From Candidatus Gastranaerophilales bacterium (GTDB lineage: Bacteria; Cyanobacteriota; Vampirovibrionia; Gastranaerophilales; Gastranaerophilaceae), in the NCBI GenBank assembly GCA_944325185.1, contig CALUZA010000059.1, forward strand, positions 6,140 to 70,139: a DNA stretch of 64,000 bases, given 5' to 3'. The position numbers and the translations under genes were made by a program. How positions within the stretch are numbered: position 1 is the first letter of the stretch; each line of letters begins with the position of its first letter. Below the pieces are notes generated by a model. The model saw only the letters and a program-made list of their open reading frames with translations, did not search any database and was not told the DNA's origin. Shown here piece after piece: positions 2,110-13,293 of this stretch.

Positions 2110-2703
2110 TTAATCCTTATTTTTTACTTTTTTAACAACAAAATAAAATTCTTGTCCTTCTTTTATTTCAATTTCTTCGCCATATTCAACCAAGGAAAGA
2201 AAAGAATCATCATAAACTTGTTTTACACCCGATTTTAATCTGTTATCTTCTTTATTTTCTTTAACGCCATCAACAAAAGAAACACCGTATGAAAAACCCT
2301 TTACAAAGAAATTGCCTACCGTGCTTGCTGTTTTCTTTACAATCGTTTTGGGGGGAGTTTTTTTAATTTCTTCTTTTGACAAAATCTTTTCTGCGTATTT
2401 TGCAACCATTATATCTTCAAAATTATGCGTTCCTTTTTTATCAGTATAACTATCCAATACAAAATATATTTTTGCATCTCGCTTTGCTCTTGTCGGGTCA
2501 GTTACTTTTTTCAATGTGCAATTTAAAACATCACCCTTAATCATATAAACATCATCCAAAACACCATCTTCAATAAGCATTACCTGAAAACTTTGTTCCG
2601 GATTTACGGAATTAAAATCTCTCATTGCACTAACATGTAACTTATCTGCCGCAAAAACAGGCGACATTACAAAAAACATCAAAAAATATAATATCTTTTT
2701 CAT
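2110..2703 (-). CDS. secreted hypothetical protein
   Basis: N-terminal signal peptide MKKILYFLMFFVMSPVFA/AD. No recognisable motifs. Confidence 0.6.
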   Translation of the reverse strand: MKKILYFLMFFVMSPVFAADKLHVSAMRDFNSVNPEQSFQVMLIEDGVLDDVYMIKGDVLNCTLKKVTDPTRAKRDAKIYFVLDSYTDKKGTHNFEDIMVAKYAEKILSKEEIKKTPPKTIVKKTASTVGNFFVKGFSYGVSFVDGVKENKEDNRLKSGVKQVYDDSFLSLVEYGEEIEIKEGQEFYFVVKKVKNKD

Positions 2704-2779: not shown

Positions 2780-5146
2780 TTATATAAACAGATTAGAATT
2801 GGAGTTTCCTGATTCAGCTATATATTTTGCAACTCCTGCAATTTCAACTCCATCTATTAATTCTTCTTTTGATATCCCCATAATATCCATAGTCATATTA
2901 CAAGCTATAAATTTAACTCCTTGACTTTGAGCCTGTTCAATTAATTCCTTTAAAGATAAAACATTTTTATCTTTCATTACTTTTTTCATCAACAATGAAC
3001 CAAAACCGCCCATATTTAACTTTGAAAGAGTTAATTTATCAGCACCTTTTGGCATCATAAAACCGAACATTTTATCAATAAAAGATTTCTTGTTGATTTT
3101 TACATTATCTTTTCTTAAAACATTTAATCCCCAAAAAGTGAAAAATAATGTGACATCTCGCCCGCTCGCTTTTGCACCGTTTGCAATTATTAAAGAAGCA
3201 AGAACTTTATCTAAATCATTTGAAAAAACGACAATAGTCTGCCCATTGTTTGTTTGTATTTTTTGTTGAGTGCTGCCTTTTTGAATAGTTGCAATTATTT
3301 TTTTATTAACGTTATTCAAGCTTAATAAAGTATTATTTGTAGAACTGCACCAAGCCTCAACATCAGAATAAAAACCTTTATCAGTTGACGATATTTCTAA
3401 AATCTCGCCATCTTTCATATTTAAAATGTTTTCTTTTAATTTCATAATAGGTCCGGGACAAGAAAGCCCACAAGCATCAACTTTTAAAATATTTTCACCA
3501 ATCACGGTGCCTGCTAAAACTTTTTCTTTTTTTACTACTTTACTTTGTTTATCTTTTTGAATTTCTTTATATAAAGTCATACCGCCCATCAAAGAATAAA
3601 CATTATTAAAACCGTTCTGAATTAAAATTCTTGAAGCAAGATAGCTTGTATATCCGGTATTACAAAGCAAAACAACCTTTTTATCTTTAGGAATTTCATT
3701 TATTCTCTGTCTTAATTCTTGAAGAGGAATATTAACCGCTCCTTCAATCGTTTTTATTTGAAAACTGTCAGATATTCTAACATCAATTATGTAGGAGTTT
3801 TCAATATCCTCATAATATGCAGGCTTAAAATATCCCCTTAAAAGGTTGTCAGCGCACATTCCAAGCACATTAACAGAATCTTTTGCAGATGAATAAGGAG
3901 GAGCATAGCATAATTCACTATCAAGTAATTCTTGAATTTTACCATTGTTTCTCATTATAGAAGCAATTACATCAATTCTTTTTTCAACGCCCTCTTGTCC
4001 CGTTGCTTGTGCGCCAAGAATTTTACCTTCATTATTAAAAAGCAACTTATATAAAGTCTGGGTTGAATCCGGATAGTATCCTGCATGCGAGTTGCCAAAA
4101 ACAAAAATCTTCCAATAAGGAATTTGCGCTTTTTTCAAAGCTTTTTCATTATAACCTACACAAGCAACCGTATAATCAAAAACCTTTAAAACCGAAGTTC
4201 CTTGAGATTTTTTATACGTAGAATTAATTTCACAAATATTATCCGCTATAATTCTTCCCTGCCTGTTTGCAGGTCCTGCAAGAGGAATTAAAGTATTTTC
4301 ACCTGTTACAAAACTTTCAACTTCAACACTATCACCACCTGCATATATATCAGGATCAGAAGTTTGCATATTTTTATTAACTTTTATACCTCTATTTACT
4401 TCAAGACCTGACTTTTGAGCAAGTGATATCTCCGGTTTTACCCCAATAGACAATATTGCAATATCATAAGAAATTTTTCTTCCCGATATTAATTCAATTT
4501 CATTTTCAAAAAATCTTTTTACCCCATCCGATAAAATTAACTCGACTCCGTTTGCTCTCATTTCATTTTGTGCAAAACAAGCCATCTCATAATCAACAGG
4601 AGCTAATATTTGACTTGAAAGCTCCACAAGCTTTGTATCTATATTAAGATGCGCAAGATTTTCAGCCATCTCAACACCAATAAAACCGCCACCAACTACT
4701 ACGGCATTTTCTACATTATTTTGAGATATTCTTTCTTTAATTTTATCTGCATCATCTAGAGTCCTAACCGTATAGATATTTTTGTTATCAATACCTTCTA
4801 TTTCAGGCTTTATTGGATTTGCACCCTGAGATAAAACTAATTTATCATAATAAAATTTTTCGTTATTTTTGGTTAAAACATATTTTTCTAATCTATTTAT
4901 TTCTATAACTTCACTATTTAATCTGACATCAATATTAAATAAATTTTTAAATCTTTCAGGACTTGAAACAAGAATTTTTTCTCTATCTGAAATTACATCG
5001 GAACAAAAATATGGTAGCCCGCAATTTGCTATTGAAATTTCTTCTGTTCTTTCAAGAATTGTAATTTCACAATTTTCATTTAGCCTTCTTAATCTTGCTG
5101 CACAACTTGCTCCGCAAGCACCACCGCCAATTATAACTACTTTCAT
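2780..5146 (-). CDS. CoA-disulfide/persulfide reductase family flavoprotein fused to rhodanese, TusA/SirA-like and DsrE-like domains
   Basis: VVIIGGGACGAS FAD motif. Redox Cys in NCGLPY (CoADR/Nox family). Rhodanese active-site loop LLCNTGYTS. TusA motif DACGLSCPGP. C-terminal DsrE/DrsE-like segment (IVVFSNDLDK...FIACNMTMD). SD GAGG lies upstream. Confidence 0.85.
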   Translation of the reverse strand: MKVVIIGGGACGASCAARLRRLNENCEITILERTEEISIANCGLPYFCSDVISDREKILVSSPERFKNLFNIDVRLNSEVIEINRLEKYVLTKNNEKFYYDKLVLSQGANPIKPEIEGIDNKNIYTVRTLDDADKIKERISQNNVENAVVVGGGFIGVEMAENLAHLNIDTKLVELSSQILAPVDYEMACFAQNEMRANGVELILSDGVKRFFENEIELISGRKISYDIAILSIGVKPEISLAQKSGLEVNRGIKVNKNMQTSDPDIYAGGDSVEVESFVTGENTLIPLAGPANRQGRIIADNICEINSTYKKSQGTSVLKVFDYTVACVGYNEKALKKAQIPYWKIFVFGNSHAGYYPDSTQTLYKLLFNNEGKILGAQATGQEGVEKRIDVIASIMRNNGKIQELLDSELCYAPPYSSAKDSVNVLGMCADNLLRGYFKPAYYEDIENSYIIDVRISDSFQIKTIEGAVNIPLQELRQRINEIPKDKKVVLLCNTGYTSYLASRILIQNGFNNVYSLMGGMTLYKEIQKDKQSKVVKKEKVLAGTVIGENILKVDACGLSCPGPIMKLKENILNMKDGEILEISSTDKGFYSDVEAWCSSTNNTLLSLNNVNKKIIATIQKGSTQQKIQTNNGQTIVVFSNDLDKVLASLIIANGAKASGRDVTLFFTFWGLNVLRKDNVKINKKSFIDKMFGFMMPKGADKLTLSKLNMGGFGSLLMKKVMKDKNVLSLKELIEQAQSQGVKFIACNMTMDIMGISKEELIDGVEIAGVAKYIAESGNSNSNLFI

Positions 5147-5164
5147 TTAAACCTCATATCTTAG

Positions 5165-5264
5165 TATATTCGCATATTAATATATTCATATTATCAAAAT
5201 TAATTTTCAAGGTCAACCCTAAAAGAATTTGACAATATTCGCATATTATAATATTCTCATAATA
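5165..5264. promoter_or_regulatory. divergent promoter region with a twice-repeated operator-like element of about 30 bp
   Basis: The 14-mer ATATTCGCATATTA occurs at 5166-5179 and 5235-5248. In both copies a second ATATTC starts 16 bp after the first (5182-5187, 5251-5256). TTGACA at 5229-5234 and TATAAT at 5247-5252 are present, but only 12 nt apart. Confidence 0.4.
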
Positions 5265-5563
5265 TGAAAAATGATATTGATATAGATGAATATTCGGCAA
5301 TATTTAAAGCTTTAGCACACCCAACAAGGCTTACAATTGCATATAATTTAATGCTAAAACCCGAATGCAATGTAAGCAAAATGAGCCAATGCCTAAATAT
5401 TCCGCAGCCGACAATATCACAACATCTATCAATATTAAAGAACTCAAATGTTTTAATTGGCAGTCGCAAAGGAAATCAAATTTGCTATAAAGTTGAAAAT
5501 CCAAAAGTCATTGCCATTTTAAAGCAGCTTTCAAACAAACAAGACCAAAACACAAGACCATAA
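5264..5563 (+). CDS. ArsR/SmtB-family winged-helix transcriptional regulator
   Basis: ALAHPTRLTIAYNL ... VSKMSQCLNIPQPTISQHLSILK ... ICYKV matches the ArsR HTH_5 core. Cys35, Cys43 and Cys74 are present. There is no canonical ELCVCDL metal site and no SD before the ATG. Confidence 0.85.
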   Translation: MKNDIDIDEYSAIFKALAHPTRLTIAYNLMLKPECNVSKMSQCLNIPQPTISQHLSILKNSNVLIGSRKGNQICYKVENPKVIAILKQLSNKQDQNTRP

Positions 5564-5592
5564 ACAACTTTGTTTGACGAACCAAATTTGAT

Positions 5593-6591
5593 ATGTTAGC
5601 TTTCTTATTAGGGGAGTTTATTTTGACAAATATAAGTATTATTTCAGCCTGTAACAATAAATGTAAATATTGTTTTCAACAAGATAACTATCATAATTTA
5701 GGACAAATGTTATCTTATGATGAAATTTTAGACATATTAGATTGGATTTCAGATAGAACTAAATTGGGAATAATGGGGGGAGAACCCACATTACATCCTG
5801 ACATCGTAAAAATATTAGAAAAAGTTTCATCAATGAATTTTGAAAAATCTGTTATTTTCACAAATTTATTGTGCAGTAAAAAATTATTATTTGAAATTGT
5901 AAAGTACACTCCAAAAATTGACTGGCTGATAAACACCACAACAAGAGATGAGCTTGTTGATAAATTTGAAGAAAATGTAGAATATTTAAATAAAATTATT
6001 GATAAAAAGCTTACTTTCGGCATAACTTTAATAAATGATTTAGAATACGACAGAAGAAACATAGATAAAATAATACGCCTTGGCAAAACCTATCCGAATC
6101 TGGTAGGCAATTACAGGGTTTCTATTGCAACACCGTATCATAAAAATATAGTAACCTTAGATTCTTATGATGATGTCGTTTTAAATTTTTGCAAAACTGC
6201 AAACAAAGAAACGCCAAATATTAAATTAAGATTTGACTGTCCTGTTAATAATTGTCAAATTTCACTAAAAACAGTCGCTCAATTAATTGATAATTACAAT
6301 GTTGACAATTTAAAAATGTCACACTGTTATCCGGTTTTGGATGTTATGGCAGATAAAAGTGTTAAATATTGTCTTTCTATGCCTGATGATTTTTTAACAG
6401 TCAAACACTACCGCGATTTTCCCGACAATCAAGCTTGCTTGGAATATTTAAAAGAAAAATTTTTTAACTATATTAAAGAAAACAGCTATCCATGTCTAAA
6501 AAACAAAAACTGTAATAACACATTATGCAACGGGCCATGTGCAGCAATAACAGAATACATAAGAAGACAAGGTTGTTCTATTAATTCATAA
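5593..6591 (+). CDS. radical SAM enzyme with Cys-rich SPASM/twitch-like C-terminal half (paralog 1)
   Basis: CNNKCKYC (CX3CX2C) within the first 30 aa and GGEPTLHPD. Ten C-terminal Cys include C-x14-C (HCYPVLDVMADKSVKYC) and C-x5-C-x4-C-x3-C. A likely alternative start is TTG 5623, preceded by AGGGGAG, giving (M)TNISIIS as in paralog 2. Confidence 0.8.
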   Translation: MLAFLLGEFILTNISIISACNNKCKYCFQQDNYHNLGQMLSYDEILDILDWISDRTKLGIMGGEPTLHPDIVKILEKVSSMNFEKSVIFTNLLCSKKLLFEIVKYTPKIDWLINTTTRDELVDKFEENVEYLNKIIDKKLTFGITLINDLEYDRRNIDKIIRLGKTYPNLVGNYRVSIATPYHKNIVTLDSYDDVVLNFCKTANKETPNIKLRFDCPVNNCQISLKTVAQLIDNYNVDNLKMSHCYPVLDVMADKSVKYCLSMPDDFLTVKHYRDFPDNQACLEYLKEKFFNYIKENSYPCLKNKNCNNTLCNGPCAAITEYIRRQGCSINS

Positions 6592-6604
6592 TGAGGATAA
6601 GATT

Positions 6605-7564
6605 TTGACAAACGTAAGTATAATTTCAAATTGCAACAACAACTGCAAATATTGTTTTCAAAAAAACACGTATCACAAAAAAAATTTAATACTGTCTTAC
6701 GAAGAAATATCAGATATTTTTAAATGGACATCAGACTGCCCAACTATAGGAATAACAGGCGGTGAACCAACGCTGCATCCTGACATTATTAAAATTGCAA
6801 GCCTTGCAAATTCTTCATTTAAAACTAAAATTCTTTTTACAAATATATTATGCGAAAGTGAAATCATAAAAGATACAACAAAATATGCACCCGAATTATT
6901 TTGGTTAATTAATTCAACAGTACCCGAAGAAAAACAAGAATTATTTGAAAAAAATATAGAATACTTAAATTCAAACACAATATATCCATTATCTTTAGGT
7001 ATAACCTTCACAAATAACCCCGAATATGACGATATAAATATAAAATACTTAATTAATTTAGGTAAAAAATATCCCAAAATAGAAGTATTCAGACTGTCAA
7101 TTGCAGCACTTGACGAGAATATGAATGTGAGTTTATCATCGTTTGCAGAGCCAATATTAAAATTTTGCAAACTTGCAAAAGAACACACACCAAATGTCAT
7201 AATAAGGATGGATTGTTTTATAAACAATTGCAACATTCCTCTAACACAAGCTGCAAGCTTAATTGACGAGTTTGAAGTTAAAAATATGTATACAACCTTA
7301 AATTGCAGACCCGTCTTAGATGTTATGGCAGATAAAAGCGTAAAATATTGTTTTATGACACCTGATAATTTCTTATCAACAAATTCATACAAAAACTTTA
7401 AAACTTCAAAAGACTGTTATGAATTTCTTCAAAAAGAATTAGATGATTATATGAAAAAAAATTGGCTACAATGTAAAAATAAAAAAAATTGTGTTAATTC
7501 AGTATGCGACGGACCATGTGTAGCATTGATTAAATTTCTGGAATTAAACAAAAAAGATAGCTAA
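6605..7564 (+). CDS. radical SAM enzyme with Cys-rich SPASM/twitch-like C-terminal half (paralog 2)
   Basis: TTG start 6 nt after GAGGA. CNNNCKYC and GGEPTLHPD. By eye it is colinear with the upstream gene at about 45-50% identity, with all C-terminal Cys conserved and PVLDVMADKSVKYC identical. Confidence 0.8.
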   Translation: MTNVSIISNCNNNCKYCFQKNTYHKKNLILSYEEISDIFKWTSDCPTIGITGGEPTLHPDIIKIASLANSSFKTKILFTNILCESEIIKDTTKYAPELFWLINSTVPEEKQELFEKNIEYLNSNTIYPLSLGITFTNNPEYDDINIKYLINLGKKYPKIEVFRLSIAALDENMNVSLSSFAEPILKFCKLAKEHTPNVIIRMDCFINNCNIPLTQAASLIDEFEVKNMYTTLNCRPVLDVMADKSVKYCFMTPDNFLSTNSYKNFKTSKDCYEFLQKELDDYMKKNWLQCKNKKNCVNSVCDGPCVALIKFLELNKKDS

Positions 7565-7577
7565 ATGCTATCTTTTT
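7555..7577 (+). terminator. rho-independent terminator closing the arsR-rSAM-rSAM operon
   Basis: Stem AGATAGC / GCTATCT with loop TAAAT (contains the stop codon), followed by a T-run. Confidence 0.5.
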
Positions 7578-7594
7578 AATAAATCCCTTTAAAA

Positions 7595-7667
<73 letters not shown>

Positions 7668-7714
7668 ATAACATGTATACTATAAAATAATTTTGTGTTA
7701 AAATCAAGTCAAAT

Positions 7715-7788
7715 GTCCACGTAGTTCAGATGGATAGAACGTCACCCTCCTAAGGTGAATGTCGGAGGTTCGAATCCTCTCGTGGACG
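7715..7788 (+). tRNA. tRNA-Arg (anticodon CCU)
   Basis: 74-nt cloverleaf: acceptor GTCCACG/CGTGGAC, anticodon stem TCACC/GGTGA with loop CTCCTAA, T-loop TTCGAAT. Confidence 0.85.
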
Positions 7789-7865
7789 TTTTTATTTCAA
7801 AATCACTAGCAAATTTCTTTTTTTACGACTTTTTTATATATAGTAAAAATGTCATGTAATATAAA

Positions 7866-8954
7866 ATGAAAATTAATTTAATAGCTCCGAAGTATTATAT
7901 AAAACAAAGAAACAATTCATATCAAACTGCACAAAATAAGAAAATTAATAATTTTATCAGTTTTGAAGGATTTCAATGTGACGAAAAGGCATTTGAAGTA
8001 AAAAATATTAACGACCTACACTGCCCAATATGCGGGCTTCTAATGCTAAATGAAAAACAACAAAGAAGCTACATGAAAGATGTTGCAAATAAAAAAGGTG
8101 AAGCTCTAAAAAAAGCACTTGAAAAATATGAAAACGAAACAGAAGTAGTTAAAAATAAAGAAAACAGCAGAAATCAAACAATATATAGAGGAGTAAAACA
8201 AAAAATAGTTACAACTCTAAAAGAGTTAGCTCTCAGATATCCCGATTTGGATCTTTCCGAATTAGTTAAATTAAAAAGAAAAGAAAGCCTAAATAAATTA
8301 ATAAGAGAACAACTTGCTATTTTTAGTGAAATTGAAAGATTAATTCAAAACAGTAAAATGAATAGAAGAGAAAGACGAAGGATTCTACGTAAACTGGAAA
8401 TGTACAAAAAAATGGCTAAAGACACAACAAATAGTGACTTTAAAAGAAAAGTTTTTATTGAAGACATTCAATCAGAAATATCCAGCTACACAACAAGAAA
8501 AAAAATTAAAACCATTGCGCAAAAATTACCATCCTCAAAAACAAAAGAAGACGCATTTTTTGTTAAATACTCTTCAGAAGGCACAACAAATCAAGATATA
8601 GCATGGTCGCTTATTTCCCAATCAATAGTAACAGCAGAACATTTAATACCAAAATCAAATAGTGGACCAAATTCTACGGAAAATTACATATGCGATTGTA
8701 ATGACTGCAATTCAAAAAGAAGCAATACTCCTTTTTATGTTTGGATGAAAAACAAAGAAGCAAAATTTCAAAAAGGTTTACAACAATACTTATACGATGT
8801 TCAAAATGCGCTTAAAAATAAAATTATAAGTTCAAAATATAAAGATTATATTTCAGATATTATAGACACTATTGCAAAATTAAGCAATGGTGAAATTATA
8901 CTTAAAAAACCAGAACAAAATTCAACAAGAATATCAGATAAAACATATTTCTAG
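7866..8954 (+). CDS. HNH-motif (beta-beta-alpha-Me) nuclease-like protein with a long basic helical N-terminal region
   Basis: C-terminal TAEHLIPKSNSGPNSTENYICDCNDCNSKRSNTPF fits the HNH pattern (E/D)H..P...N..C..CN..(K/R). There is an N-terminal CPIC pair. The middle is Lys/Arg/Glu-rich and helical. Confidence 0.6.
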   Translation: MKINLIAPKYYIKQRNNSYQTAQNKKINNFISFEGFQCDEKAFEVKNINDLHCPICGLLMLNEKQQRSYMKDVANKKGEALKKALEKYENETEVVKNKENSRNQTIYRGVKQKIVTTLKELALRYPDLDLSELVKLKRKESLNKLIREQLAIFSEIERLIQNSKMNRRERRRILRKLEMYKKMAKDTTNSDFKRKVFIEDIQSEISSYTTRKKIKTIAQKLPSSKTKEDAFFVKYSSEGTTNQDIAWSLISQSIVTAEHLIPKSNSGPNSTENYICDCNDCNSKRSNTPFYVWMKNKEAKFQKGLQQYLYDVQNALKNKIISSKYKDYISDIIDTIAKLSNGEIILKKPEQNSTRISDKTYF

Positions 8955-11585: not shown

Positions 11586-12710
11586 CTATTTACCAAGTGC
11601 GGACTTCATTCTATCCAAAAGCCCCGTCTGTTCCTTAGAAATATTATACAATTCTCTGTATAAACTTTCTTCACGACTTGATAATTTCTTCGGAATATTT
11701 ACTTTTATTGTAACGTAATGGTTGCCTTTTTGCGACTCGCTTCCAAGATAAGGAACACCTTGTCCTTTTAGAGTAATTCTATCTCCATTTTGAATACCTG
11801 CAGGAATTTTTGCCAAAACCTCACCATGAATCGTTTTAACTGAAATATCATCACCTAAAACTGCTTGCGGAGTAGTAATTTCTAATTCTGTATATATATC
11901 AAATCCATGTCTTGTAAATTCTTTGGATGATTTTACATATACAACCACATACAAATCCCCCGGGCGACCACCATTCCTTCCCGCGTTTCCTTCATGGGCA
12001 ACGCGCATTTTAGAACCGGATTCAATGCCTTTTGGAATTTTTATAGTCAATTTTTTCTCTTTTGCAATAGTCCCTTCGCCATTACAAACCTTACAAAATG
12101 CTTTAGGATTTTTACCTGTCCCATGGCAATTAGGACAAGTTGTAACGGATGTAAAAGATCCCAATATTGTCTGGGTGCTTTTTTGTATCCTTCCTTGCCC
12201 ATGACACATAGGACAAACAGTATCTTTTGCATTTTTATCTATACCTGTAGAATTACAAGCTTCACACGGTTCAAGATGTTTAATTTTAATTTCTTTTTCT
12301 AATCCAAAACATGCTTCTAAAAAATCTATTTCTATATCAAGTCTTAAGTCTTCACCATCAACCGGAGCATTAGGATTTCTTTCATACCCCCTTGAAAAAC
12401 CGCCAAAACCGCCAAAAAACGAAGAAAATATATCTGATAAATCAATATCATCCATACTAAATGAATGAGGATTAAATCCGGCATTAGAAAGCCCTTCTTC
12501 ACCGTATCTATCGTATATTTGTCTTTTATTATCATCAGATAACGTTTCGTACGCTTTTCCGATTTCCTTGAATTTATCCGCCGCATCTGGCGCTTTATTA
12601 ACATCAGGGTGATATTTTCTTGCTAATGTTCGAAATGCCTTTTTTAAATCATCTTTTGTCGCATTTCTGTCTACACCCAATATTTCATAATAATCCATTG
12701 TACTATTCAT
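11586..12710 (-). CDS. dnaJ: molecular chaperone DnaJ
   Basis: DYYEILGV...[16 protein letters not shown]-domain, a G/F region, and four CxxCxGxG zinc-finger repeats. The tracked ORF extends to 12731. ATG 12710 overlaps the grpE stop, and ATG 12698 is another option. Confidence 0.9.
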
Positions 12711-13293
12711 TTTCCTTCTTCTTTGCAACACCCACCAAGGCAGGTCTTAAAACTTTATCAGCTAATTTGTAACCTTTTTGAGCAACTACAGCAACGTGAT
12801 CTTCCTCATATTCATCTGTTGGAACTTGCGTAATTGCTTCATGCTCATTAGGATTAAATTCTTTTCCCAATGCTTCAATTTCTTCCATTCCCACTTTTTT
12901 TAAAGTATCCAACAGCTGTTTATATGCAACTTCATAGCTTTCTTTTACTGTTGTACAATTATCAATTTCTTTCAAACTATCTTTTGCTCTATCAAAAGTA
13001 TCCAATACTGAAATTATTTTCGTTAAAACATCTGCCGCAGCATATTTTAAAAGCTCTTGGCGTTCATTTGCCATTCTTTTTCTGAAATTATCAAAATCTG
13101 CAGCAAGTCTTAAATATTTGTTATTCAAATCTTCATATTTTTGTTCAAAATCTTCTAACTGAGTTTCTTGTTGCTTTTCTTCAGTAACATCAGATGAATC
13201 TTCTTCGGGAGTTTCATCTTTTTCTTGAGTTTCTTCAACGTTTTCTATATTTTCTTCTTCATCATGGAAAGGATTTTTTTTATTATCTTCCAT
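12703..13293 (-). CDS. grpE: nucleotide exchange factor GrpE
   Basis: Acidic N-terminus and [16 protein letters not shown] motif, with C-terminal beta domain ...NPNEHEAI...V..GY.L..KVLRPA.V.VA. SD AAGGAGG lies upstream. Confidence 0.9.

What the first reader, a model, noticed from the sequence alone, without database searches (positions are those of the whole stretch)
2780..7577. ArsR-type regulator heading an operon of two tandem radical-SAM/SPASM-like paralogs, divergent from a CoADR-rhodanese-TusA-DsrE fusion
**Seen in the sequence.** Three genes run from 5264 to 7564: an ArsR-family HTH protein and two radical SAM enzymes of about 320 aa. The gaps between them are 29 nt and 13 nt, and a terminator hairpin lies at 7555-7577.
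- The two enzymes are colinear paralogs. CX3CX2C lies within the first 20-30 residues, so there is no room for an N-terminal RRE/PqqD-like peptide-recognition domain.
- Both carry GGEPTLHPD and ten conserved C-terminal cysteines (C-x14-C, C-x5-C-x4-C-x3-C), as expected for auxiliary Fe-S clusters.
- Across a 117-bp control region carrying two copies of a 30-bp repeat lies a 788-aa flavoprotein. It combines a CoA-disulfide/persulfide reductase, a rhodanese, a TusA domain and a DsrE domain, which together form a complete sulfane-sulfur relay.

**Established knowledge.** ArsR-family members such as BigR and SqrR sense persulfides and control CoADR/rhodanese-type genes. SPASM and twitch radical SAM enzymes catalyse C-S and C-C bond formation or formylglycine formation.

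**Inference.** This may be a persulfide-regulated module in which two auxiliary-cluster radical SAM enzymes act on a substrate that is not encoded in the operon. I do not recognise this combination as a described system. No sulfatase, precursor peptide or kinase gene lies inside the operon, so anSME, classic RiPP and viperin assignments do not fit cleanly.
Basis: partly seen in the sequence, partly recalled or inferred. Interest (0 to 1): 0.7.

Follow-up and report, generated by a model that had tools for sequence, protein, structure and literature searches.

The report
Sulfur-stress switch beside unrelated radical-SAM pair
A conserved sulfur-stress module (an ArsR-type repressor and a four-domain persulfide reductase) lies next to two uncharacterised radical SAM enzymes, but other genomes show this pairing occurs only in this species, so it is not a new persulfide-controlled pathway.

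Summary
The sequence-level observation holds. The genes, gaps, cysteine motifs, operator repeats, four-domain reductase and terminator are all present where stated.

The proposed functional unit does not hold up.
- ArsR orthologs (72-84% identity) are common in Gastranaerophilaceae (Melainabacteria). In five other loci ArsR always sits divergent from the same CoADR-rhodanese-TusA-DsrE fusion, with conserved operator repeats. The gene downstream of arsR differs each time and is never a radical SAM gene.
- The two radical SAM proteins belong to a very rare family of about 19 clusters among 5.8 billion proteins. It is seen only in low-GC, Melainabacteria-like contigs.
- This family occurs as 1-3 tandem copies in eight other, mutually unrelated contexts. 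None of these contains an ArsR or reductase gene.
- Similarity to orthologous loci stops at the ortholog's arsR stop codon, so the pair occupies a variable slot.

The enzymes lack a peptide-recognition (RRE) domain. They have a divergent SPASM-like domain with seven invariant cysteines, and their nearest fold is SuiB. They match no curated family (anSME, viperin, MoaA, HxsBC).

In this species they are probably co-transcribed with arsR. I read that as incidental. Their substrate remains unknown.

The parts
2780..5146 (-). 788-aa fused persulfide-reductase-type flavoprotein. Domains: CoADR core (res 1-432, Cys42), rhodanese (451-527, Cys495), TusA (555-623, Cys563 in a CPxP motif), DsrE2-like (636-787, Cys749).
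   Evidence: Pfam hits all lie above their gathering scores. The PDB sequence search gives B. anthracis CoADR-RHD 3ICR at 519 bits over residues 2-529, Shewanella Npsr 3NTA at 473 bits, E. faecalis CoAPR 8A56 at 416 bits, and DsrE 3PNX for the C-terminus. The same fusion (788-792 aa) is divergent from ArsR in all 5 ortholog loci.
5147..5263 (.). 117-bp divergent control region with two operator-like repeats, at 5166-5194 and 5235-5263 (core ATATTCGCATATTA). The second repeat overlaps the arsR promoter-like TTGACA-17-TATTCT at 5229-5257.
   Evidence: The repeats were found. The exact 14-mer occurs only here in the 64 kb window. Both repeat blocks are conserved in the orthologous intergenic regions of L092, L094 and L097 (alignment A3).
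5264..5563 (+). ArsR/SmtB-family winged-helix repressor, 99 aa. Cys35 is invariant and Cys74 nearly invariant among orthologs. It has a 7-residue C-terminal extension relative to the orthologs.
   Evidence: HTH_5 and NCBIfam NF033788 score 79.4 bits against a cutoff of 55. The ortholog alignment is A4. The closest solved structures are PagR, BigR and YgaV. DNA similarity to ortholog loci ends at the ortholog stop codon.
5593..6591 (+). rSAM-A: radical SAM enzyme with a divergent SPASM-like C-terminal cysteine domain and no RRE. The probable true start is TTG 5623.
   Evidence: Radical_SAM scores 49 bits over the N-terminal ~100 residues only, and there is no SPASM hit. The AF2 model has pLDDT 88.6. 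The best Foldseek match is SuiB 5V1S, E 2.9e-9, TMq 0.59. The family profile aligns to SuiB across the SPASM cysteines. It groups with L001 copies 1 and 2 in the NJ tree.
6605..7564 (+). rSAM-B: paralog of rSAM-A (46% identity), with a TTG start preceded by GAGGA.
   Evidence: It groups with L001 copy 3 in the NJ tree, so the A/B split predates the divergence of the two genomes.
7551..7577 (.). Intrinsic-terminator-like hairpin (11-bp stem) that overlaps the rSAM-B stop codon. It is shared with the convergent tRNA-Lys gene.
   Evidence: Found in the scan. It folds at -12.9 kcal/mol, z -7.85. tRNA-Lys(CTT) lies at 7594-7668 on the minus strand. No comparable hairpin lies between arsR and rSAM-A (z -0.49).

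Best explanation
Two separate units lie side by side.

**Unit 1: a conserved sulfane-sulfur module of Gastranaerophilaceae**
- An ArsR-family repressor binds two conserved ATATTCG(C/T)ATATTA-type operators in the 117-bp divergent region.
- There it represses its own gene and a fused NAD(P)H persulfide reductase (CoADR-RHD type) extended by TusA and DsrE2 sulfur-carrier domains.
- Derepression probably follows thiol modification of the conserved Cys35 and Cys74. This step is inferred and not tested.

**Unit 2: a pair of anciently duplicated radical SAM enzymes**
- They belong to a very rare family seen only on low-GC, Melainabacteria-like contigs.
- Each has a CX3CX2C cluster at the extreme N-terminus, a GGE SAM-binding motif and a divergent SPASM-like domain. 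Its seven invariant cysteines should hold two auxiliary [4Fe-4S] clusters.
- The expected mechanism (inferred) is reductive cleavage of SAM, followed by hydrogen abstraction by the 5'-deoxyadenosyl radical from a substrate held between the barrel and the auxiliary-cluster domain.
- The most likely substrate is a peptide or protein encoded elsewhere in the genome. The paralogs would then act on different sites or in different steps.

**Relationship between the two units**
- In this species the pair has landed in the variable slot immediately 3' of arsR.
- With no terminator in the 29-59 nt gap, it is probably transcribed by read-through from the arsR promoter. Any persulfide control of the pair is therefore a local accident rather than a designed pathway.
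For: **The ArsR-reductase pairing is conserved**
- It was seen in 5 of 5 other loci, with variable genes downstream of arsR.
- The operators are conserved.
- Similarity to the window stops at the ortholog stop codon.
- ArsR orthologs are abundant: P0199 alone is indexed in 4241 blocks of the collection.

**The rSAM family is rare and moves independently**
- It has only about 19 strong 90%-identity clusters among 5.8 billion proteins. It has six 50%-identity representatives better than 1e-80.
- Its other contexts (L001, L002, L003, L006, L007, L009, L012, L098) share no ArsR or reductase gene and no common neighbour.
- Copy number varies from 1 to 3, with independent amplifications and one pseudo-rSAM copy.
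- The closest named genome hit is a Candidatus Melainabacteria MAG.

**The fold and cysteine pattern are SPASM-like**
- The AF2 model is confident, and its top Foldseek matches are SuiB, SkfB, BlsE, TigE and AbmM.
- The profile alignment to SuiB spans the hairpin Cys pair and the C-terminal Cys cluster.
- Distant relatives (22-28% identity) sit in RiPP-like clusters with a stand-alone PqqD, an HprK-like kinase, a SPASM rSAM, an ABC exporter and NTP_transf_5.

**Co-transcription is plausible**
- There is no terminator between arsR and rSAM-A, and a strong one follows rSAM-B.
- An independent assembly shows the same arrangement.
Against: - No precursor peptide, RRE protein, protease or dedicated transporter is conserved next to the Melainabacteria copies, so the peptide-substrate inference rests on fold and on distant relatives.
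- Those distant relatives are heterogeneous. Their contexts include ACP/acyltransferase/AMP-ligase, NRPS with a glycosyltransferase, a glycyl-radical enzyme, ATP-grasp ligases and GT9 fusions.
- The Pfam SPASM model does not match.
- Co-transcription and ArsR binding were not tested.
- Only fragments of the other genomes were seen, so a distant but conserved co-occurrence with the reductase module cannot be excluded.
- The number of independent rSAM contexts is small.
Confidence: 0.6

Rival explanations
1. One reading: ArsR, the reductase and the two rSAM enzymes form one persulfide-regulated pathway. The rSAM enzymes would use or respond to sulfane sulfur supplied by the rhodanese-TusA-DsrE relay, for example by inserting sulfur or forming thioethers on a substrate encoded elsewhere.
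For: - The genes have the same orientation with short gaps, and no terminator lies between arsR and rSAM-A.
- The arrangement is reproduced in an independent assembly of the same species.
- SPASM-type enzymes do form C-S bonds (established knowledge).
- The operator overlaps the only obvious promoter upstream.
Against: - No linkage is seen in any other genome in either direction: 5 ArsR-ortholog loci and 8 rSAM-family contexts.
- L001 carries orthologs of both A and B without ArsR or the reductase.
- The breakpoint lies exactly at the 3' end of arsR.
- The rSAM family is orders of magnitude rarer than the ArsR-reductase module.
Confidence: 0.1
2. The rSAM pair modifies a small molecule, such as a sugar nucleotide, a lipid or an acyl-carrier-bound intermediate, rather than a peptide. 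This would resemble twitch or auxiliary-cluster enzymes like BlsE, AbmM and BtrN.
For: - Foldseek matches BlsE (E 1.3e-7), AbmM and BtrN in addition to the RiPP maturases.
- Some family-core representatives are fused to a GT9 heptosyltransferase domain.
- An AMP-binding ligase follows the rSAM genes in L007 and L012. AMP-ligase or NRPS, ACP and acyltransferase genes neighbour the closest non-Melainabacteria relatives, L013 and L016.
- No RRE or precursor peptide lies nearby.
Against: - The best fold and profile matches are peptide maturases: SuiB, SkfB, and PapB/ScfB-like full-length weak alignments in relatives.
- AMP-ligase linkage is absent from most Melainabacteria contexts, including this window.
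- The fusions and neighbours are in proteins only 22-28% identical.
Confidence: 0.2
3. The proteins belong to an already characterised orphan rSAM class: anaerobic sulfatase maturase, glycyl-radical-enzyme activase, prokaryotic viperin or MoaA.
For: - CX3CX2C at the extreme N-terminus with no RRE is typical of anSME and GRE activases (established knowledge).
- The top NCBIfam and PADLOC names are viperin and MoaA.
- One distant relative (L015) lies 16 nt after a PFL-like glycyl-radical enzyme.
Against: - Every such hit covers only about the first 100 residues and scores far below its cutoff: viperin 46 against 180, MoaA 41 against 284, HxsC 31 against 268. pVip covers 92 of 257 model positions.
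- anSME 4K36 scores only 18 bits, over the N-terminus only.
- A motif scan finds no sulfatase or glycyl-radical signature in the 64 kb window.
Confidence: 0.04

Closest known systems
RS-SPASM / twitch peptide maturases (SuiB, SkfB, PapB/ScfB-like)
   Same: - They share a partial TIM-barrel rSAM core followed by a Cys-rich auxiliary-cluster domain.
- The family profile aligns to SuiB through the beta-hairpin Cys pair and the terminal Cys cluster.
- SuiB is the best Foldseek match, E 2.9e-9, TMq 0.59.
- Distant relatives occur with a stand-alone PqqD protein in RiPP-like clusters.
   Different: - There is no N-terminal RRE/PqqD domain.
- The Cys spacing is C-x14-C ... C-x5-C-x4-C-x3-C rather than CX9-15GX4C ... 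CX2CX5CX3C.
- The Pfam SPASM model does not match at any threshold.
- No precursor, protease or transporter is conserved nearby.
- The family occurs as bare tandem arrays of 1-3 paralogs.
CoADR-RHD / Npsr / CoA persulfide reductase (B. anthracis 3ICR, Shewanella loihica 3NTA, E. faecalis CoAPR 8A56)
   Same: - Residues 1-530 match these enzymes at 416-519 bits, with the CoADR active-site Cys42 and the rhodanese Cys495.
- In E. faecalis, both the RSS sensor CstR and CoAPR show elevated persulfidation when sulfide is added (PMC9405070).
   Different: - The window protein carries additional C-terminal TusA and DsrE2-like domains.
- Its adjacent regulator is an ArsR-family protein rather than a CsoR-family protein like CstR.
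- It scores below the TIGR03385 equivalog cutoff, 459 against 579.
ArsR-type sulfane-sulfur sensors (BigR, SqrR; also sHdrR/SoxR, YgaV)
   Same: - It is a small winged-helix ArsR/SmtB repressor encoded next to sulfurtransferase or persulfide-handling genes and binding repeats in the promoter region.
- BigR and YgaV are among the closest solved structures.
- ArsR-type sulfane-sulfur-responsive repressors are documented (PMC9774590, PMC12423496).
   Different: - The BigR equivalog score is 55.8 against a cutoff of 155.
- The BigR Cys42 / SqrR Cys41 position is not a cysteine here.
- The protein ends at residue 92-99, before the position of the alpha5 Cys (BigR Cys108 / SqrR Cys107).
- The conserved cysteines are instead Cys35, at the position of the first Cys of the metal-sensor CVC motif, and Cys74.
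Paired and pseudo radical SAM systems described by genome-context models (HxsB/HxsC; pseudo-rSAM TIGR04150, TIGR04347)
   Same: Adjacent paralogous rSAM genes occur. One array (L006) includes a copy that has lost CX3CX2C but keeps the C-terminal cysteines.
   Different: - HMM scores are far below cutoff: HxsC 31 against 268, HxsB 23 against 370.
- No His-Xaa-Ser peptide or other marker genes are present.

Membership tests
Radical SAM superfamily (PF04055) | CX3CX2C cluster motif, a GGE-type SAM-binding motif, and a Pfam score above the gathering threshold | tested here: met
   The motif cysteines are C20/24/27 in A and C10/14/17 in B. GGEPTLHPD is present in both. PF04055 scores 49.2 and 46.2 bits against a cutoff of 29.5.
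SPASM domain (PF13186 / TIGR04085) | A match to the SPASM HMM | tested here: not met
   There is no PF13186 hit at E<=0.01 on the full proteins. There is none at E<=10 on the isolated C-terminal domains of four family members. TIGR04085 is absent from the listed NCBIfam hits.
SPASM domain (PF13186 / TIGR04085) | The seven-cysteine motif CX9-15GX4C - gap - CX2CX5CX3C - gap - C, binding two auxiliary clusters | tested here: inconclusive
   There are seven invariant C-terminal cysteines plus a drifting eighth. The spacing is C-x14-C and C-x5-C-x4-C-x3-C, which differs from the canonical pattern. The profile aligns these cysteines to the SuiB SPASM cysteines, and the fold matches SuiB at TMq 0.59. 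Cluster content cannot be tested here.
Anaerobic sulfatase maturase (anSME, TIGR03942) | A full-length match to the anSME model or structure, and a sulfatase substrate gene | tested here: not met
   anSME 4K36/4K37 match only the N-terminus at about 18 bits. The family is not among the listed NCBIfam hits. No sulfatase signature was found in the window (regex only).
Prokaryotic viperin (NF038283; PADLOC pVip) | A full-length score above cutoff | tested here: not met
   Scores are 46.2 and 39.3 bits against a cutoff of 180, covering model positions 4-109 of 281. pVip covers positions 3-92 of 257.
HxsB/HxsC paired rSAM system | A score above cutoff to TIGR03977 or TIGR03978 | tested here: not met
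   HxsC scores 31.5 and 29 bits against a cutoff of 267.9. HxsB scores 23.4 and 24.6 bits against a cutoff of 370.
RiPP rSAM maturase (class-defining context) | An RRE/PqqD domain (fused or adjacent) and a precursor peptide gene in the cluster | tested here: not met
   There is no N-terminal domain, since CX3CX2C starts at residue 10-20. No PqqD hit and no conserved small ORF were found in 8 Melainabacteria-type contexts. Only distant Bacteroidales relatives have an adjacent PqqD.
ArsR/SmtB family | A winged-helix HTH_5 domain and a score above the NF033788 cutoff | tested here: met
   NF033788 scores 79.4 bits against a cutoff of 55. PF01022 scores 38.8 bits against a cutoff of 22.
BigR/SqrR persulfide-sensing ArsR subgroup | The equivalog score, and the sensing Cys pair (alpha2 Cys41/42 and alpha5 Cys107/108) | tested here: not met
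   NF040642 scores 55.8 bits against a cutoff of 155. The BigR cysteine in LVCTL aligns to a non-Cys position. The orthologs end at residue 92-99 with no alpha5 Cys. The Cys numbering comes from PMC9774590.
CoADR-RHD / persulfide reductase | A CoADR flavoprotein core with its active-site Cys, fused to a rhodanese domain with a catalytic Cys | tested here: met
   3ICR scores 519 bits over residues 2-529 and 8A56 scores 416 bits. Cys42 lies in IANCGLPY and Cys495 in LLCNTG. The TIGR03385 equivalog cutoff is not reached, 459 against 579.

The most novel reading that the evidence does not exclude
The RRE-less, tandemly amplifying rSAM family seen only in Melainabacteria-like contigs has a non-canonical seven-Cys auxiliary domain and occasional pseudo-rSAM copies. 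It could be a new functional class whose substrate is encoded elsewhere. In this species its capture behind a sulfane-sulfur-responsive arsR promoter could be adaptive. For example, expression of oxygen- and sulfide-sensitive Fe-S enzymes, or of a thioether-forming step, would be coupled to persulfide availability.
Probability: 0.12. Interest if true: 0.6.

Novelty: new member of a known kind. Interest (0 to 1): 0.3.

Why it matters
- It separates a real regulatory module from a neighbour that only looks like part of it. The real module is an ArsR repressor with a four-domain persulfide reductase, widespread in gut Gastranaerophilaceae.
- That prevents a false "persulfide-regulated radical SAM pathway" annotation from spreading.
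- The ArsR lacks the BigR/SqrR cysteine pair yet is invariably coupled to a persulfide reductase. It is a candidate for a different thiol-sensing geometry in the ArsR family.
- The rSAM family is a small, uncharacterised clade whose repeated tandem amplification suggests diversifying function. It is one of very many orphan rSAM families, and nothing here yet points to new chemistry.

Tried and rejected
- **Curated family assignment.** Pfam, NCBIfam and PADLOC gave only N-terminal sub-threshold hits.
- **Direct profile comparison with a canonical SPASM neighbour.** hhalign was uninformative, at probability 7.8%.
- **Precursor peptides.** Small-ORF scans of the intergenic regions around all Melainabacteria-type copies found nothing conserved.
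- **A conserved neighbour.** All-vs-all clustering of flanking ORFs over 37 loci found only local synteny (HD-domain, AMP-ligase and DAHP-synthase genes in a few loci) and no universal partner.
- **A U32-peptidase-like partner.** The link between L098 and L016 is only E 7e-4, with no Pfam, NCBIfam or PDB support.
- **tRNA-gene adjacency as a hint to tRNA modification.** Different tRNAs are involved (Lys/Arg, Gln, Cys) and several loci have none, so this was treated as coincidence.
- **Foreign origin by composition.** GC is uniform at about 0.28-0.31 across 1-11 kb.
- **Literature.** I found no paper on this rSAM family or on the four-domain fusion. PDB entry 8QKF, a close ArsR structure, has no paper in the library.

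Full report
**1. What is in the sequence**

- On the minus strand, 2780-5146 encodes a 788-aa protein. It has a pyridine-nucleotide-disulfide oxidoreductase core with a dimerisation domain, followed by Rhodanese, TusA and DrsE_2 domains.
- Motif searches locate the expected catalytic-type cysteines at Cys42 (IANCGLPY), Cys495 (LLCNTG), Cys563 (CPGP) and Cys749.
- Residues 1-530 match B. anthracis CoADR-RHD (3ICR, 519 bits), Shewanella Npsr (3NTA) and E. faecalis CoA persulfide reductase (8A56, 416 bits). The C-terminus matches a DsrE structure.
- Across a 117-bp region lies a 99-aa ArsR/SmtB protein at 5264-5563.
- Two radical SAM genes follow, rSAM-A at 5593-6591 and rSAM-B at 6605-7564. They are 46% identical and colinear.
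- The repeat pair at 5166-5194 and 5235-5263 is real. Its exact 14-mer core occurs nowhere else in the 64 kb window.
- The hairpin at 7551-7577 is strong (-12.9 kcal/mol, z -7.85). The arsR/rSAM-A spacer has no significant structure.
- Family alignment suggests that rSAM-A really starts at TTG 5623, behind AGGGGAG.
- An independent metagenome assembly carries the identical gene order.

**2. The ArsR belongs with the reductase**

- Searching the ArsR returns over a hundred clusters at 72-84% identity. One is named Candidatus Gastranaerophilaceae and is indexed in 4241 blocks of the collection.
- In five distinct loci (L092-L097) the ortholog is always divergent from a 788-792-aa CoADR-rhodanese-TusA-DsrE fusion.
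- The gene after arsR is different in each locus and is never a radical SAM gene. It is a 279-aa unknown protein, an acyltransferase, small ORFs, an opposite-strand ABC ATPase or an opposite-strand enolase.
- Both operator blocks are conserved in these intergenic regions. One of them overlaps the TTGACA -35-like hexamer upstream of arsR.
- DNA similarity between the window and the ortholog loci ends exactly at the ortholog's stop codon, and the window ArsR has seven extra residues.
- The conserved unit is therefore ArsR, the operators and the reductase. The rSAM pair occupies a variable slot.

**3. The ArsR is not BigR/SqrR-like in its sensing residues**

- It scores 55.8 bits against the BigR equivalog cutoff of 155.
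- In profile alignments the BigR cysteine (LVCTL) faces a non-cysteine position. The proteins also end before the position of the alpha5 cysteine. The residue numbers for BigR Cys42/Cys108 and SqrR Cys41/Cys107 come from PMC9774590.
- The conserved cysteines are Cys35, at the position of the first Cys of the metal-sensor CVC motif, and Cys74.
- Sulfane-sulfur sensing is thus an inference from the invariant genomic partner. It is not shown.

**4. The radical SAM family**

- Only 19 strong clusters exist among 5.8 billion proteins. In the 50%-identity library six representatives score better than 1e-80, after which scores fall.
- All the contexts recovered are low-GC (0.28-0.38) contigs, and the best named genome hit is a Candidatus Melainabacteria MAG.
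- The contexts are as follows:

| Locus | rSAM copies | Neighbours |
|---|---|---|
| L001 | 3 tandem | follow a 472-aa unknown protein |
| L002 | 1 | between an M48 peptidase and a Zn-ribbon protein |
| L003 | 1 | between an ABC permease and a MacAB/OEP-type pump |
| L006 | 2, plus a degenerate third | follow a sigma-70 gene |
| L007 | 3 | between an HD-domain gene and an AMP-ligase |
| L012 | 1 | same place as in L007 |
| L009 | 1 | before def-fmt |
| L098 | 3 | follow two unknown proteins |

- None of these contexts has ArsR or the reductase, and no neighbour is universal.
- A neighbour-joining tree places window A with L001 copies 1 and 2, and window B with L001 copy 3. The A/B split is therefore older than these two genomes. 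The L007 and L098 triplets are independent amplifications.
- The third copy in L006 has lost CX3CX2C and GGE but keeps the C-terminal cysteines.

**5. Fold and family placement**

- Invariant residues across 22 members include CX3CX2C, GGEPTLHP and seven C-terminal cysteines: C216, C221, C260, C301, C307, C312 and C316.
- Pfam recognises only the first ~100 residues as Radical_SAM. There is no SPASM match even at E<=10.
- Every NCBIfam and PADLOC hit covers only the N-terminus and is far below its cutoff. These include viperin, MoaA, W-cofactor maturase, NrdG, Tes, HxsC and PapB.
- The AlphaFold model is confident (pLDDT 88.6). Its best PDB neighbours are SuiB (E 2.9e-9, TMq 0.59), SkfB, BlsE, TigE and AbmM.
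- The family profile aligns to SuiB over residues 9-305, including the hairpin Cys pair and the terminal Cys cluster.
- I therefore call it a divergent SPASM-like auxiliary-cluster domain on an RRE-less rSAM core.

**6. Wider relatives**

- A profile search finds 179 representatives better than 1e-30. Nearly all are about 320 aa and align over their full length, and none of the ten tested reaches a curated cutoff.
- Their contexts are heterogeneous:
  - Bacteroidales clusters with two tandem copies, then PqqD, an HprK-like kinase, further rSAM/SPASM genes, an ABC exporter and NTP_transf_5, which is RiPP-like.
  - ACP, acyltransferase and AMP-ligase genes (L016), and an NRPS with a glycosyltransferase (L013).
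  - A glycyl-radical enzyme immediately upstream (L015).
  - ATP-grasp ligases (L100).
  - GT9 fusions.
- This supports a generic role as an accessory tailoring enzyme. It does not allow function to be transferred to the window proteins.

**7. Conclusion**

The ArsR-reductase sulfur module is real, and the rSAMs are uncharacterised and fit none of the named classes.
- The most likely picture is two units. One is a conserved ArsR/persulfide-reductase switch. The other is a mobile or variable pair of SPASM-like rSAM paralogs, read through from the arsR promoter in this species only.
- The peptide-versus-small-molecule question for the rSAM substrate remains open. I favour a peptide or protein substrate at modest confidence.
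- The novelty is that of a new member, an orphan subfamily, of a known kind. Interest is low to moderate.

Noticed in passing
window 7866-8954 (+): A 362-aa protein with a C-terminal HNH nuclease domain (Pfam 23.6 bits). It has weak similarity to the HNH region of IscB and Cas9d (26 and 24 bits, far below cutoff). It lies just after the tRNA pair.
   Followed up: no
window 7594-7668 (-) and 7714-7789 (+); L007 4711-4784; L012 7894-7967; L001 7466-7539: tRNA genes lie directly next to the rSAM arrays in four loci: Lys-CTT and Arg-CCT here, Gln-TTG in L007 and L012, and Cys-GCA in L001. The identities differ and several loci have none, so this is probably coincidence.
   Followed up: partly
L006 5715-6671: The third tandem family copy lacks the CX3CX2C and GGE motifs but retains the C-terminal cysteine pattern. 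It is a pseudo-rSAM with an apparently intact auxiliary-cluster domain.
   Followed up: partly
L015 5682-8963 (Victivallales MAG): A distant family relative (120 bits to the family HMM) starts 16 nt after a PFL-like glycyl-radical enzyme gene. It may be an unusual activase with a C-terminal Cys-rich domain.
   Followed up: no
P0088, P0135 (representative library): The ~320-aa family core is fused to a C-terminal GT9 heptosyltransferase domain in two distant representatives.
   Followed up: no
window 11586-13293 (-) and L006 9-1492 (+): grpE-dnaJ lie within about 2-5 kb of the rSAM array in both the window and L006. This may be a remnant of an ancestral location.
   Followed up: no
L092-L097 ~2914-3485 versus window 2110-2703: In all five ArsR-ortholog loci the reductase gene is followed by a PTPS (QueD-like) gene. 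In the window that position holds a 197-aa protein with a hydrophobic, signal-peptide-like N-terminus and no Pfam domain.
   Followed up: no
L021 91-8401, L019, L022, L014 (Bacteroidales MAGs): These MAGs share a conserved cluster in this order: a 170-aa unknown protein, two tandem family rSAMs, PqqD, an HprK-related kinase, a ~460-aa rSAM, an rSAM/SPASM, an ABC exporter and NTP_transf_5. It looks like an undescribed or poorly described RiPP-type system.
   Followed up: partly
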